Positions 14,194 to 29,118 are shown, numbered from the stretch's first letter. The stretch: DNA of 64,000 nt from Candidatus Melainabacteria bacterium (GCA_016193285.1 JACPSL010000025.1:58523-122522), one strand, 5' to 3'. The notes: generated by a model from the letters alone, not told the origin. Made by a program: numbers and translations.

Positions 14194-14952
14194 ATGGAAC
14201 TTACAAATGAAGAATTAAAAAGATATTCAAGGCAAATAGTACTACCTGAAATAAGCATCCAAGGTCAGCTTGCTTTACAAAAAAGTAAAGTGTTAGTAGC
14301 AGGTGCAGGAGGCTTAGGTTCTAGTGCACTGCTGTACCTTGCTAGTAGTGGCATTGGTACAATTGGTGTAATTGATTACGATAACGTAGATTTATCAAAT
14401 TTACACAGACAAGTTATTCACTACACAGATGATCTAAATAAGTCTAAGGTAATTTCAGCTAAAGAAAAAATAAATAAATTAAATCCTAATGTAAAAGTTG
14501 TTACATTTAATGAAAAATTAAGTCAAACAAATATAAAAAACATTTTAAATGATTTTGAGATTGTTATTGACGGGCTTGATAATTTTAATGATAAGTTTTT
14601 ACTAAATGATAGTTGTGTTTTATTAAATAAGAAATTAATTCATGCTGGAGTAATTGGTTTTGAAGGACAAATACTAACAATAATTCCTAAAAAGTCTGCA
14701 TGTCTTAGATGTTTTTTCCCAGATAAAATACCAGACAATTTAAGACAAAGTTGTAAAGAAATTGGTGTTTTAAGTACTTGTGTTGGTGTGTTAAGTATCA
14801 TTCAGGCAAATGAAGCAATTAAACTAATTTTAGGTATCGGAAAACCACTTACAAACAAGGTTTTAAAGTTTAATGCTTTAGATGGAACGTTTTATGAATT
14901 TAAAGTACAAGATATTAACAAAAGTTGTCCTGTTTGCAACCTAGCGACCTAA
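14194..14952 (+). CDS. moeB: ThiF/MoeB-family E1-like adenylyltransferase
   Basis: Nucleotide-binding GAGGLGS motif and C-terminal CxxC pairs (CLRC...CPVC). Confidence 0.8.
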   Translation: MELTNEELKRYSRQIVLPEISIQGQLALQKSKVLVAGAGGLGSSALLYLASSGIGTIGVIDYDNVDLSNLHRQVIHYTDDLNKSKVISAKEKINKLNPNVKVVTFNEKLSQTNIKNILNDFEIVIDGLDNFNDKFLLNDSCVLLNKKLIHAGVIGFEGQILTIIPKKSACLRCFFPDKIPDNLRQSCKEIGVLSTCVGVLSIIQANEAIKLILGIGKPLTNKVLKFNALDGTFYEFKVQDINKSCPVCNLAT

Positions 14953-26790: not shown

Positions 26791-26837
26791 AAAAAACAAA
26801 AAGATTTTTTGAGGTGAGGTGAGAGTGATGGGGTAGG
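26791..26837. repeat. island repeat family A, copy 1 (AAAGATTTTTTGAGGTGAGG + G-rich tail)
   Basis: One of five imperfect copies at 26791, 27551, 28251, 29076 and 29549. Each lies immediately 3' of a minus-strand cassette. Confidence 0.7.
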
Positions 26838-26856: not shown

Positions 26857-27054
26857 TTAAGATGCTTTTCTAACTATTTTTATTTCTGAGACATATTTTG
26901 ATTTATCAGGGTCTTTTTTTGCTATTTTACGCAGGTAATTCATGATCCTTGTCGGATTGTTTCCAAAACGAGCAGTAAGTGCTCTACCTCTGGCTCTAGT
27001 TTCTTCAACTACGGGGTCAAACCATTTAGCATTACTTTTTTTTCTTTTTTTCAT
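26857..27054 (-). CDS. small basic protein, partner of the upstream PIN protein (family shared with 28304..28459 and 39791..39988)
   Basis: A conserved D-P-[LV]-x-E...Y core shared by three paralogs, each directly downstream of a PIN gene. Confidence 0.5.
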   Translation of the reverse strand: MKKRKKSNAKWFDPVVEETRARGRALTARFGNNPTRIMNYLRKIAKKDPDKSKYVSEIKIVRKAS

Positions 27055-27063
27055 ACACTTTAA

Positions 27064-27525
27064 TTATACCCTGAGTTCAAGTGGTGTAACAATTTCAGGG
27101 AGAAATAGACCTAATGTTGCATTTATATTTTTCATATGTATTTTCTTGTTTACGTTTGCTAGATGGGCACAGTTCCAGGTTAATAAGATATCAATTTTGT
27201 AAACTGAAGCAAATGCTAGATGCAATGCATCTCTCGTATCTTTTAATGGCATTAATTTATTCTTAAGATAGATTTCAATAATCTTATCAACTTGTTCTAT
27301 AGGATTTAATATATGGATGCCTTTTGTTAGCTTTATTGCATATATTTGATTTGGGAAATTTCCTCCTTTTAGTTCTTCTAAGACAAAATTGCTTATATAT
27401 AAATCATAAAAATGTTTTTCATTGTTCCACCATTCTCTTGTTCTCTTAATATGAACATCAAGCTCTGATCTTTCATCAACATAATAACTAAAAATAGTTG
27501 TATCTAAATAAACACTTTGTTTCAT
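27064..27525 (-). CDS. PIN-domain protein (VapC-like toxin), paralog 1
   Basis: N-terminal V-Y-L-D-T-T acidic motif and C-terminal DALHLAFASV...LLTWNCAHL region shared with the other two PIN paralogs. Confidence 0.65.
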   Translation of the reverse strand: MKQSVYLDTTIFSYYVDERSELDVHIKRTREWWNNEKHFYDLYISNFVLEELKGGNFPNQIYAIKLTKGIHILNPIEQVDKIIEIYLKNKLMPLKDTRDALHLAFASVYKIDILLTWNCAHLANVNKKIHMKNINATLGLFLPEIVTPLELRV

Positions 27526-27550: not shown

Positions 27551-27608
27551 AAACACGAGAAAGATTTTTTGAGGTGGGGTGGGAGTGGTGGGGGGTAATG
27601 GGGTGAGG
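27551..27608. repeat. island repeat family A, copy 2 (longest G-tract: GGTGGGGTGGGAGTGGTGGGGGGTAATGGGGTGAGG)
   Basis: Seen directly. Confidence 0.7.
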
Positions 27609-27623
27609 TAATTAAATAGCAAC

Positions 27624-27866
27624 CTATGCAACTCGAAAGTTTTTCCCAATCGGAATAAAATTATCTGTGTGTCCTTTTTCCAACTTATTCTTAATCTCTT
27701 CAAATTTACAAACTTGTTCGGGTGTGAAAAGAATCTCTCCACACATTTCACAAACTTCTACATAAACATCAATTAATGCTGAATTGTTTCCACCATTAAT
27801 AGTGTGGATGATCTTTTTTATTTCAATTCTATCTGAACCACACGATGGGCATTTAAAGTTTTGCAT
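27624..27866 (-). CDS. YgiT-type (MqsA-like) zinc-finger protein, putative antitoxin
   Basis: CPSCGS...(20 aa)...CEMCGE zinc ribbon in an 80-aa protein. Its start lies 2 nt after the stop of the upstream toxin-like ORF. Confidence 0.6.
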   Translation of the reverse strand: MQNFKCPSCGSDRIEIKKIIHTINGGNNSALIDVYVEVCEMCGEILFTPEQVCKFEEIKNKLEKGHTDNFIPIGKNFRVA

Positions 27867-27868
27867 TG

Positions 27869-28186
27869 TTATTTCCTTTTCTTATATTCTACCCATTTCT
27901 TTGGATTAGGCCTATAAACAGTAATTAGAATGGCTATTTGAGATCCCTTATCCAGTGCCCATACAGTATGAATAGGCTCATTTTTATTATTAAAACTTAA
28001 TACTAAACACGACGGCAGCGGCTTACTACTAGGATAGTCTTCTATTACTTCAGCATGCTTAATAGATGTTTTTATTTCAAGGATCGAAATATTGTCAGCA
28101 TCTTTTTCTTGAAGAGCATGTTGAGTAATTCTAAAATTATCTGATTGAATGGCTGACTTTAAGTCTTCAAAATTTATGAATGTATT
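27869..28186 (-). CDS. DUF4258-like toxin-family ORF with no ATG start (possible pseudogene or non-canonical start)
   Basis: Stop-to-stop ORF that is not in the supplied track. Its translation ...RITQHALQEKDADNISILEIKTSIKHAEVIEDYPSSKPLPSCLVLSFNNKNEPIHTVWALDKGSQIAILITVYRPNPKKW matches the HA...R.I...YP.DKP.PS.L.......P.H.V.A......I.ITVY.P....W pattern of this toxin family. Confidence 0.45.
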   Translation of the reverse strand, partial: NTFINFEDLKSAIQSDNFRITQHALQEKDADNISILEIKTSIKHAEVIEDYPSSKPLPSCLVLSFNNKNEPIHTVWALDKGSQIAILITVYRPNPKKWVEYKKRK

Positions 28187-28250
28187 CTACAACAAGTGAT
28201 CTAATATACATGTAACCAAAGGTTACATAAGTATTTTAATTAACATTACA

Positions 28251-28298
28251 AAAACACAAGAAAGATTTTTTGAGGTGAGGAGTAAGGGGATAGAGTGA
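28251..28298. repeat. island repeat family A, copy 3
   Basis: Seen directly. Confidence 0.7.
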
Positions 28299-28303
28299 CT
28301 TAC

Positions 28304-28459
28304 TTATGCTGTTTTCTTGCTCACTTGTTTTTTAAGTTTTGCTGCTTCTTCTCTAATATATTTTACATATTCTGAAGCAGACATCTTTTTTGTCTCTTCG
28401 TAGATTTTTCTTCTTATTTTATGTAATTCTTCAAGCGGATCTTTTTCTTTTCTTTTCAT
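28304..28459 (-). CDS. small basic protein partner of PIN paralog 2
   Basis: MKRKEKDPLEELHKIRRKIYEE... aligns with the other two partners. Using the internal Met (not the tracked start at 28507) removes the 38-nt overlap with the PIN gene. Confidence 0.5.
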   Translation of the reverse strand: MKRKEKDPLEELHKIRRKIYEETKKMSASEYVKYIREEAAKLKKQVSKKTA

Positions 28460-28469
28460 ATGATTCTCC

Positions 28470-28988
28470 TTATTGTGAAACAAATTCTCTTGGTGAAACA
28501 ATTTCAATTAAGCTATAACCTTCTCGTAAATTAATTACGTGAACACCTTTAATAGTTCTAGCTCGTACGATATGTTGAAAGTTCCATGAGACAATAAAAT
28601 CACAATGATTTAAACTAGCAACAGCAATGTGAATAGCATCATTGATAGCATTAGAAGGCATCAATCCTTCATTAGTATAAATCTTAGCTAGATTATATGA
28701 TTCATTGCTTGGAGTTAGAATCTCAGGTTGATATTTTTCAACCAATCTCAATAACTGTTTACGCCTTGTGTCATAAGCTCTATTAATTTCAACTTCAACA
28801 ACTTCTGATATACAAAGTAAATGACTTTTACTTTTACCATAAACTTCTAAAAAATCTATAGTTAGCCTGTACTCACTTCTATTGGTTTCAAGAGCTAAAT
28901 TCCATATAGAGGTATCAATATAAAGCTTTGTTTTCTTAATCATTATAATGATTATAACAGCTAGTTGTTCTGTCATGATATTCAACAA
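28470..28988 (-). CDS. PIN-domain protein (VapC-like toxin), paralog 2
   Basis: KLYIDTSIWN...DAIHIAVASL...SWNFQHIV...IEIVSPREF is close to paralog 3. The likely true start is MIKKTKLY at 28943, behind a TGnTATAAT box. Confidence 0.65.
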   Translation of the reverse strand: MLNIMTEQLAVIIIIMIKKTKLYIDTSIWNLALETNRSEYRLTIDFLEVYGKSKSHLLCISEVVEVEINRAYDTRRKQLLRLVEKYQPEILTPSNESYNLAKIYTNEGLMPSNAINDAIHIAVASLNHCDFIVSWNFQHIVRARTIKGVHVINLREGYSLIEIVSPREFVSQ

Positions 28989-29075: not shown

Positions 29076-29118
29076 AAAAAACACAAAAGATTTTTTGAGG
29101 TGAGGAGTAGGGGGATAA
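29076..29118. repeat. island repeat family A, copy 4
   Basis: Seen directly. Confidence 0.7.

What the first reader, a model, noticed from the sequence alone, without database searches (positions are those of the whole stretch)
27624..28186. MqsRA-like pair: DUF4258-family toxin ORF without an ATG start, coupled to a YgiT-type zinc-finger protein
The supplied ORF track misses a 105-codon stop-to-stop minus-strand frame (27869..28186). Its translation (…HALQEKDADNISILEIK…EDYPSSKPLPSCLVLSF…PIHTVWALDKGSQIAILITVYRPNPKKW) matches the conserved pattern of the DUF4258 toxin family. It ends 2 nt before the start of an 80-aa CxxC…CxxC YgiT/MqsA-like zinc-ribbon protein. There is no ATG, GTG or TTG after the upstream in-frame stop. 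The toxin is therefore either translated from a rare start (ATA/ATT) or was inactivated by start-codon loss while the antitoxin was retained.
Basis: partly seen in the sequence, partly recalled or inferred. Interest (0 to 1): 0.5.

Follow-up and report, generated by a model that had tools for sequence, protein, structure and literature searches.

The report
MqsRA-like toxin pair, ATA start
This is a real but ordinary toxin-antitoxin-type gene pair, already annotated in GenBank, whose only odd feature is that the toxin gene begins with ATA where its relatives have ATG, GTG or TTG, so the toxin is probably made only in trace amounts or not at all.

Summary
The minus-strand frame 28186..27869 is open for 105 codons and has no ATG, GTG or TTG. 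It is a full-length DUF4258 protein (Pfam 73.4 bits, cutoff 25). It ends 2 nt before an 80-aa YgiT-type zinc-finger gene (TIGR03831 31.2 bits, cutoff 20.2).

The pairing is conserved in 54 of 59 clusters from 143 related loci. Met1 of relatives aligns exactly with ATA at 28177..28175, one G-to-A change from ATG. The five closest orthologous loci checked have ATG or GTG there. Four independent assemblies carry ATA, and NCBI already annotates the gene from that codon (MBI2996171.1).

The toxin ORF shows no other decay. Toxins of this family use GTG or TTG far more often than their antitoxins (17/59 versus 2/54 clusters).

Best reading: a recently attenuated or disarmed toxin whose antitoxin keeps its own AAGGA and ATG. 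A selected ultra-weak start is not excluded. A conserved upstream palindrome is a new lead.

This is a new member of a known kind, of modest interest.

The parts
27869..28177 (-). DUF4258 toxin gene: 102 codons from ATA (28177..28175) to the TAA stop (27871..27869)
28175..28177 (-). ATA codon at the position of the family's initiator Met; the only plausible start
   Evidence: Codon table. The orthologous loci examined at the DNA level have ATG or GTG at this aligned position: L005, L007, L009, L085, L086 and L087 ATG; L006 and L012 GTG. ATA is present in four independent assemblies.
27869..28186 (-).
27624..27866 (-). 80-aa YgiT-type zinc-ribbon antitoxin candidate (CxxC at residues 6-9 and 39-42), no HTH domain
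27874..27878 (-). AAGGA Shine-Dalgarno-like motif, 7 nt before the antitoxin ATG, inside the last toxin codons
   Evidence: Read from the sequence. The same KKRK-coding AAAAGGAAA is present in orthologs L005 and L007.
28184..28189 (-). TAGAAT, a -10-like hexamer exactly 6 nt before the ATA. It aligns with TGAGAAAAT or TGAGAGAAT in orthologs. It is a possible (extended) -10 of a leaderless transcript; alternatively a weak SD-like GAGA.
   Evidence: Conserved position in the window, L005, L006, L007 and L085. TATAAT-like hexamers peak at 6-7 nt before ATG for other window genes. The function is inferred, not shown.
28210..28228 (.). Perfect palindrome ATGTAACC-TTT-GGTTACAT, 51 to 33 nt upstream of the ATA; candidate operator
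   Evidence: The same TGTAAC(C/T)-N3-GGTTACA is found upstream of the toxin in L007, L087, L009 and L086, and in L085 with 1 mismatch. The loop sequence varies freely.
28259..28277 (-). C-rich repeat core CACCTCAAAAAATCTTTCT upstream of the module. It is one of four copies that bracket three toxin-antitoxin cassettes.
27558..27576 (-). Next copy of the same repeat, immediately downstream of the antitoxin gene

Best explanation
A two-gene, type II toxin-antitoxin-style module lies on the minus strand.

Gene 1 encodes a 102-residue DUF4258 protein. It has a RelE/MqsR-like (BECR) fold, so it is presumably an RNA-cleaving toxin that uses the invariant His20, His70, Tyr88 and Arg89.

Gene 2 starts 2 nt later. 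It encodes an 80-residue zinc-ribbon protein equivalent to the toxin-binding N-terminal domain of MqsA. It presumably neutralises the toxin by direct binding. It has no DNA-binding HTH domain.

In this genome the toxin's initiator codon is ATA, a derived one-base (G to A) change from the ATG seen in close orthologs. The expected consequence is that toxin synthesis drops to a trace. In E. coli AUA gives 0.02-3% of AUG. The drop would probably be larger if the mRNA is leaderless, as the TAGAAT 6 nt upstream suggests. The antitoxin is still made from its own AAGGA and ATG.

The locus is therefore a recently attenuated or disarmed module, either an early step of toxin decay or a tolerated hypomorph. 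It is not a conserved regulatory design.

Shown here: family membership, folds, gene linkage, the ATA at the Met1 position, its derived state, and the lack of other lesions. Inferred: RNase activity, neutralisation by binding, the size of the translational drop, and the leaderless transcript.
For: - Profile hits pass the cutoffs.
- A toxin followed by a CxxC partner is conserved in 54 of 59 clusters, from bacterial phyla and archaea.
- Met1 of all homologs aligns with the ATA.
- The orthologous loci examined at the DNA level have ATG or GTG there. Of 59 clusters only this one has a near-cognate codon as its majority state, so ATA is not conserved.
- Toxin decay is common in the family. There are frameshifts in L059 and L160, and remnants in L021, L076, L079, L081 and L084. 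L149 combines an ATT 'start' with loss of the invariant Tyr88.
- The antitoxin has an independent AAGGA plus ATG.
- AUA initiates at 0.02-3% of AUG in E. coli (bioRxiv 10.1101/063800).
- ATA is identical in four assemblies, so it is not an assembly error.
Against: - The toxin ORF is completely intact. All 9 invariant and 10 nearly invariant residues are kept. It has only one private change at conserved columns (Y75L), which is no more than its relatives have. If this is decay, it is very recent.
- ATA is among the best non-canonical initiators.
- The family shows a significant bias to weak starts on the toxin: 17 GTG/TTG of 59 clusters, against 2 of 54 for the antitoxins, p = 7e-5. A selected weak start is therefore plausible.
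- NCBI's pipeline accepted ATA as the start.
- No expression data exist for this organism.
Confidence: 0.5

Rival explanations
1. ATA is a working start codon maintained by selection. The toxin is made at a very low but functional level, which sets a safe toxin:antitoxin ratio in an operon where the toxin gene comes first. This would be the extreme of a family-wide tendency to put weak start codons on the toxin.
For: - The ORF is intact and no conserved residue is lost.
- Toxins of this family use GTG or TTG in 17 of 59 clusters, against 2 of 54 for the paired antitoxins.
- The closest genome representative from Melainabacteria (L012) and ortholog L006 already use GTG.
- ATA is fixed in four samples.
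- Near-cognate AUA gives measurable initiation in E. coli.
- Type II modules are known to rely on translational control to keep antitoxin above toxin (PMC5535158).
- NCBI annotates the CDS from ATA.
Against: - None of the other 58 clusters has a near-cognate start as its usual state.
- The one other case (L149, ATT) also lost the invariant Tyr88, which looks like decay.
- There is no recognisable strong SD before the ATA to compensate.
- If the transcript is leaderless, a 5'-terminal AUG is normally required (my own knowledge of E. coli leaderless mRNAs, not tested here).
Confidence: 0.33
2. The toxin is expressed by a recoding or coupling route from the upstream 14-codon ORF (ATG 28211, MYIRSLVVEYIHKF, stop TGA 28169..28167). 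One route is a prfB-like +1 shift at UUU UGA into the toxin frame. The other is termination-reinitiation at the nearby ATA.
For: The small ORF starts with ATG and ends in TTT TGA, overlapping toxin codons 3-4. A +1 slip on TTTT would enter the toxin frame at Glu4 (read).
Against: - The small ORF is not conserved. It is 2 codons long in L007 and absent in L085, L087 and L009.
- There is no SD before its ATG and no SD-like stimulator before the slip site.
- Its ATG lies in the 3' arm of the palindrome.
- Relatives have no N-terminal extension.
Confidence: 0.03
3. The ATA is a sequencing, assembly or consensus artefact, and the real genome has ATG.
For: It is a single-base difference in a metagenome-assembled genome.
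Against: An identical 721-bp stretch including the ATA is found in four assemblies from four sequencing runs (SRR12113418, SRR12113425, SRR12113426, SRR12113428). The only NCBI record of this protein is consistent with the same frame.
Confidence: 0.02
4. The pair is not a toxin-antitoxin system at all. The DUF4258 protein and its zinc-ribbon partner would have another joint role, for example a regulated RNase or an RNA-binding complex without addiction or defence behaviour.
For: I found no experimental test of a small DUF4258 plus zinc-ribbon pair. DUF4258 is listed with unknown activity and no references in PMC11980606. There is no PADLOC hit.
Against: - The fold is that of MqsR, BrnT and RelE toxins and the partner's fold is that of the MqsA N-domain.
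- DUF4258-MqsA fusions are reported.
- The gene pair is spread patchily across distant phyla and archaea and is often decayed.
- It sits between two PIN modules in a small island.
- All of this is typical of type II toxin-antitoxin modules.
Confidence: 0.1

Closest known systems
E. coli MqsR/MqsA (YgiU/YgiT) type II toxin-antitoxin system
   Different: Sequence identity is about 10%. There is no MqsR_toxin Pfam hit. The MqsA models score below cutoff. The antitoxin is 80 aa and lacks the C-terminal HTH domain that MqsA uses to bind DNA. The MqsA site is AACCT-N3-AGGTT (PMC4894380); here it is AACC-N3-GGTT, so the half-sites are 2 bp closer. The conserved residues (His, His, Tyr, Arg) differ from those I recall for MqsR (not tested).
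Synechocystis Slr1421 (DUF4258) with the downstream small ORF ncr1610-sORF1
   Same: It is a DUF4258 protein, noted as a structural homolog of MqsR. A small protein gene follows it and overlaps its stop, and that protein is proposed as the antitoxin (bioRxiv 10.64898/2025.12.20.695498). The gene order is the same and the lineage (Cyanobacteria/Melainabacteria) is related.
   Different: I did not compare the sequences, so it is unknown whether that 71-aa protein is a YgiT-type zinc ribbon. No unusual start codon is reported there. Like the present pair, it has not been tested for toxicity.
DUF4258 family as catalogued among RelE/ParE (BECR) toxins, including DUF4258-MqsA fusions
   Same: It is the same Pfam family (PF14076) and has the same type of partner. 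PMC11980606 lists about 6K members, unknown activity, and 17 DUF4258-MqsA fusion proteins.
   Different: That survey lists the gene order as A/T. In all 54 clusters seen here the toxin comes first. Here the two proteins are separate and the partner has no HTH.
BrnT/BrnA and RelE-type toxins
   Different: The antitoxin classes differ (RHH or HTH proteins instead of a zinc ribbon). There is no sequence-level relationship.
Genes with established near-cognate starts, such as infC (AUU) in E. coli
   Same: An AUH codon sits at the initiator position of an otherwise normal gene, with low intrinsic initiation efficiency.
   Different: From my own knowledge, the infC AUU is conserved and has a known autoregulatory role through IF3. 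Here the ATA is confined to one lineage and no use or regulation has been shown.

Membership tests
Pfam DUF4258 (PF14076) | Profile score above the gathering threshold over the whole domain | tested here: met
   73.4 bits against 25, E = 1.8e-20, model positions 1-71 of 71.
Pfam DUF4258 (PF14076) | Conserved residues of the close subfamily (His20, Cys57, Leu58, His70, TVYRP 86-90) | tested here: met
   All 9 invariant and 10 nearly invariant columns of a 38-sequence alignment are kept. There is one private change, Y75L.
YgiT-type zinc finger (TIGR03831) | Profile score above the cutoff, and two CxxC motifs | tested here: met
   31.2 bits against 20.2. CPSC at residues 6-9 and CEMC at residues 39-42.
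MqsA antitoxin family (TIGR03830 / PF15731) | Full-length profile match | tested here: not met
   TIGR03830 scores 25.9 bits against 61.8. PF15731 scores 18.4 bits against 30. Only model positions 1 to about 60 are matched.
MqsA antitoxin family (TIGR03830 / PF15731) | [quoted passage not shown] | tested here: not met
   The protein is 80 aa. The model has a beta hairpin, one helix and a beta hairpin, with no HTH. All 54 partner clusters are short, about 71-91 aa.
MqsA antitoxin family (TIGR03830 / PF15731) | Fold of the zinc-binding N-terminal domain | tested here: met
MqsR toxin family (PF15723) | Sequence profile match | tested here: not met
   MqsR_toxin is not among the Pfam hits at E up to 1. 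There is no PDB sequence match.
MqsR toxin family (PF15723) | MqsR/RelE-like fold | tested here: met
Type II toxin-antitoxin system | Two small adjacent co-oriented genes whose linkage is conserved across lineages | tested here: met
   The gap is 2 nt here and typically -4 to +2 nt elsewhere. A CxxC partner is found in 54 of 59 clusters.
Type II toxin-antitoxin system | The toxin arrests growth and the antitoxin neutralises it by binding | not testable with these tools
   I found no experimental data for this subfamily.
Type II toxin-antitoxin system | Autoregulation through an operator in the promoter | tested here: inconclusive
   A conserved palindrome TGTAAC(C/T)-N3-GGTTACA lies upstream in 6 orthologous locus types. 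No DNA-binding domain was identified in either protein.
Gene with a functional non-canonical start codon | The non-canonical codon is conserved among orthologs | tested here: not met
   Orthologs have ATG or GTG. Only 1 of 59 clusters has an AUH codon as its usual state.
Gene with a functional non-canonical start codon | Evidence of initiation at that codon (ribosome profiling or N-terminal peptide) | not testable with these tools
   No expression data are available for this uncultured Melainabacteria MAG.
Pseudogene (decayed toxin) | Disabling lesions other than the start codon (frameshift, internal stop, loss of invariant residues, excess private substitutions) | tested here: not met
   The frame is open across all 102 codons. 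Invariant residues are kept. The count of private changes is not an outlier.

The most novel reading that the evidence does not exclude
The ATA is a selected, ultra-weak (possibly leaderless-context) initiator. It would be the extreme of a systematic rule in toxin-first DUF4258/zinc-ribbon modules, in which the toxin:antitoxin ratio is set by start-codon choice. Toxins use GTG, TTG or AUH in about 30% of clusters, while their antitoxins use ATG in about 96%. In addition, these HTH-less modules would be autoregulated through the conserved TGTAAC(C/T)-N3-GGTTACA palindrome by a DNA-binding mode not yet described for YgiT-type zinc-ribbon proteins or their toxin complexes.
Probability: 0.25. Interest if true: 0.5.

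Novelty: new member of a known kind. Interest (0 to 1): 0.3.

Why it matters
For annotation: gene finders limited to ATG, GTG and TTG silently drop an intact, conserved toxin gene. The four Logan assemblies missed it, while NCBI's pipeline kept it. The antitoxin then looks like an orphan.

For biology: the case is a clean natural example of a toxin whose only lesion is the start codon. It could be used to ask whether toxin-first modules tune or disarm the toxin at the level of initiation.

The family-wide excess of weak start codons on the toxin, and the conserved palindrome upstream of modules whose antitoxin lacks any known DNA-binding domain, are small but testable leads. They concern an uncharacterised and widespread DUF4258/zinc-ribbon family. 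None of this changes current understanding if the ATA is simply a recent inactivating mutation.

Tried and rejected
- **Closer strains carrying ATG.** I looked for them in GTDB species genomes and JGI metagenomes. Nothing closer than 57% identity turned up there. The closest relatives, at about 70%, came only from ENA and Logan contigs. The age of the ATA therefore could not be bracketed.
- **The NCBI contig.** An exact look-up of the NCBI protein found no gene record, so I could not read the NCBI contig itself.
- **Upstream small ORF with +1 frameshift or reinitiation.** Rejected as the main route because the small ORF is not conserved.
- **Downstream ATT or CTG codons as starts.** Rejected because they would delete helix 1 or more.
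- **The palindrome as an RNA element or terminator.** The scan flags it on the plus strand. Its arms are conserved in sequence with a free loop and no covariation, the surrounding RNA fold is not better than shuffles (z = -0.31), and there is no Rfam hit. A DNA operator is therefore favoured but unproven.
- **Sequence-level links to solved structures.** None found for either protein.
- **Known defence-system models.** No PADLOC hit.
- **A sigma-70 consensus scan.** It did not call a promoter for the toxin. The -10-like/leaderless idea rests on cross-ortholog conservation only.
- **Genome scan with the wide alignment.** The first scan with the 38-sequence alignment failed for lack of a conserved stretch and was repeated with the 11 closest sequences.

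Full report
**1. The observation**

On the minus strand, the frame from 28186 to 27872 has 105 sense codons. It is bounded by TAG (28189..28187) and TAA (27871..27869) and contains no ATG, GTG or TTG. It therefore does not appear in a canonical-start ORF list.

It is the only start-less frame of at least 80 codons in the 64-kb window that does not look like an antisense shadow. Only this frame was searched against profiles.

Two nucleotides after its stop begins an 80-codon ORF (27866..27624) with CPSC and CEMC motifs. All coordinates in the finding are right.

**2. What the two proteins are**

The start-less frame matches Pfam DUF4258 end to end: 73.4 bits against a gathering score of 25, E = 1.8e-20. 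The 80-aa protein passes NCBIfam TIGR03831, the YgiT-type zinc finger (31.2 bits against 20.2). It fails the full-length MqsA models: TIGR03830 scores 25.9 against 61.8, and PF15731 scores 18.4 against 30. Only their N-terminal 60 positions are matched.

A database search found 38 homologs of the toxin. All are about 102-110 aa except a few more distant ones. The closest is a GenBank protein, MBI2996171.1, 'DUF4258 domain-containing protein [Candidatus Melainabacteria bacterium]'. It is identical to the window frame except for M at the first position. The antitoxin is identical to the adjacent accession MBI2996170.1, 'YgiT-type zinc finger protein'. GenBank therefore already annotates both genes, and the toxin is annotated from the ATA.

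**3. Fold-level test of 'MqsRA-like'**

- **Sequence level.** Neither family has a solved structure detectable by sequence.

The pair therefore resembles MqsR/MqsA in architecture and fold. It is not a member of those sequence families, and the antitoxin lacks MqsA's HTH DNA-binding domain.

The literature agrees. DUF4258 is catalogued as a BECR/RelE-superfamily toxin family of unknown activity, with 17 DUF4258-MqsA fusions (PMC11980606). Synechocystis Slr1421 (DUF4258) was recently noted as an MqsR structural homolog followed by a small translated ORF proposed as its antitoxin (bioRxiv 10.64898/2025.12.20.695498). I found no experimental test of toxicity for this type of pair.

**4. Conservation of the module**

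I collected loci from ENA and Logan contigs, 74 loci from GTDB species genomes and 80 loci from JGI metagenomes. Of these, 143 had a usable toxin N-terminus, and they form 59 clusters at about 70% identity.

- In 54 of the 59 clusters a CxxC...CxxC ORF follows the toxin, and the partners examined were 71-91 aa.
- In the loci examined the partner usually overlaps the toxin stop by 4 nt or follows it after 2 nt.
- Hosts range from Melainabacteria and Cyanobacteria to Chloroflexota, Desulfobacterota, Planctomycetota, Bacteroidota and Lachnospiraceae. They also include two archaeal MAGs.
- Decayed copies occur. L059 and L160 have frameshifts. L021, L076, L079, L081 and L084 are C-terminal remnants.
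- In the window the module sits between two PIN-domain cassettes.

Patchy distribution, tight linkage and frequent decay are the usual signature of type II toxin-antitoxin modules.

**5. The start codon**

In every alignment, Met1 of the homologs (consensus M-[DN]-[LIF]-E-x-L-K) falls exactly on ATA at 28177..28175.

The orthologous loci examined at the DNA level have these codons there:

| Codon | Loci |
|---|---|
| ATG | L005, L007, L009, L085, L086, L087 |
| GTG | L006, L012 |

ATA is thus a derived single G-to-A change at the third position. It is not an assembly artefact, because four assemblies from four runs share an identical 721-bp stretch that includes it. The gene calls on those assemblies all skip the toxin.

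No in-frame alternative exists. A stop lies three codons upstream. The next AUH or CUG codons would remove helix 1 or more.

**6. Functional weak start, or inactivation?**

Evidence against old decay:
- The ORF is intact.
- All 9 invariant and 10 nearly invariant residues of a 38-sequence alignment are kept.
- The protein has one private change at otherwise conserved columns (Y75L). Its ten closest relatives have 0-3.

Evidence for attenuation as a theme in the family:
- Among the 59 clusters, the toxin can start with ATG in 40, with only GTG or TTG in 17, with ATA in 1 (this one), and is unresolved in 1.
- The paired antitoxins use ATG in 52 clusters and GTG in 2 (Fisher p = 7e-5; smaller set).

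Evidence against a conserved ATA design:
- No other cluster has a near-cognate start as its usual state.
- The single other case, L149, has ATT at Met1 behind a good AGGAG. It has also lost the invariant Tyr88 (TVCRP), which looks like decay.

In E. coli AUA supports 0.02-3% of AUG-level initiation (bioRxiv 10.1101/063800). Even a 'lost' start therefore leaves a trace of product, and the two readings shade into each other.

I weight them at 0.50 for recent attenuation or disarming, and 0.33 for a selected working start.

**7. Regulatory anatomy (inferred)**

- **Possible promoter.** Exactly 6 nt before the start codon, the window has TAGAAT. Orthologs L005, L006, L007 and L085 have TGAGAAAAT or TGAGAGAAT at the same place. 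This fits an (extended) -10 element that would put the transcription start on the first base of the start codon, giving a leaderless mRNA. Several other genes in the window have TATAAT-like hexamers 6-7 nt before their ATG, and few have Shine-Dalgarno motifs. The consensus promoter scan did not call this site, and a weak SD-like GAGA is an alternative reading. If the mRNA is leaderless, AUA should be an especially poor start (my knowledge of E. coli leaderless mRNAs; not tested).
- **Antitoxin translation.** The antitoxin has its own AAGGA 7 nt before its ATG, inside the conserved KKRK codons of the toxin. It can therefore be made independently.
- **Palindrome.** Further upstream lies the perfect palindrome ATGTAACC-TTT-GGTTACAT (28210..28228). 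The same TGTAAC(C/T)-N3-GGTTACA recurs 50-77 nt upstream of the toxin in L007, L087, L009 and L086, and in L085 with one mismatch. The arms are conserved in sequence and the loop varies freely. It is absent in L005 and L006. This looks like an operator. The MqsA site is AACCT-N3-AGGTT (PMC4894380), which has a similar core but different spacing. Nothing in either protein is a recognisable DNA-binding domain, so what binds it is unexplained. As RNA the region is not unusually structured (z = -0.31) and matches no Rfam family.

**8. Rejected alternatives**

- A 14-codon upstream ORF (ATG 28211 to TGA 28167) ends in UUU UGA, where a +1 slip would enter the toxin frame. It is not conserved in orthologs, and it has no SD or stimulator.
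- Sequencing error is excluded.
- A non-toxin-antitoxin function cannot be formally excluded without experiments, but it is disfavoured by the fold, the partner, the distribution and the genomic context.

**9. Verdict**

It describes a new member of a known, if experimentally uncharacterised, kind: a toxin-first DUF4258/YgiT-zinc-ribbon module. The pair is already annotated in GenBank.

The ATA start is a genuine oddity of modest interest. The family-wide weak-start bias on the toxin and the conserved palindrome in HTH-less modules are the most useful leads.

Noticed in passing
window 26798-26816, 27558-27576, 28259-28277, 29084-29102 (minus strand): Four same-strand copies of a C-rich repeat bracket three small cassettes. 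The core is CACCTCAAAAAATCTTT, preceded by CCCC..ACT. The cassettes are PIN plus a small ORF, DUF4258 plus YgiT, and PIN plus a small ORF. Four matches were found against 0.09 expected by chance. There is no Rfam match. The repeat could be a shared terminator/promoter unit or a cassette boundary.
   Followed up: partly
window 28470-28988 and 28307-28459; 27064-27525 and 26857-27054 (minus strand): There are two PIN-domain genes (Pfam 26.4 and 31.0 bits). Each is followed by a small ORF (51 and 65 aa) with no Pfam hit. These are presumably toxin-first PIN modules with unclassified antitoxins. Together with the nearby ParE-like, caspase-like and DUF234 ATPase genes they form a small toxin/defence island.
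   Followed up: partly
L149:135-458 (JGI contig Ga0126375_10041782): This is a second DUF4258 gene with a near-cognate codon (ATT) at the Met1 position. It has a good AGGAG 9 nt upstream and an intact antitoxin. However, the invariant Tyr88 is replaced by Cys (TVCRP), which suggests a decaying toxin.
   Followed up: partly
L059 (Crocosphaera sp. XPORK-15E), L160, L021, L076, L079, L081, L084: These are frameshifted or truncated DUF4258 toxin genes next to apparently intact zinc-ribbon partners, or bare C-terminal remnants. Toxin decay is frequent in this family.
   Followed up: partly
143 related loci (L001-L167), 59 clusters: Toxin genes of this family use GTG or TTG in 17 of 59 clusters. Their downstream antitoxins use a non-ATG start in only 2 of 54 (Fisher p = 7e-5). 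This is a family-wide bias to weak initiation on the toxin.
   Followed up: yes
window gene starts at 14194 (+), 2273 (-), 58013 (+) and others: TATAAT-like hexamers lie 6-7 nt before the ATG of several genes. Shine-Dalgarno motifs are scarce (about 14 of 55 long ORFs). Leaderless mRNAs may be common in this 30% GC Melainabacteria genome.
   Followed up: partly
L005:200-260 and L007:1-50: The two orthologous loci share a conserved upstream stretch (ggaaaacaattcaggctKgagaatccggagttttatta) containing a second small palindrome (AATCCGGAgTT). It is absent from the window. Its meaning is unknown.
   Followed up: no
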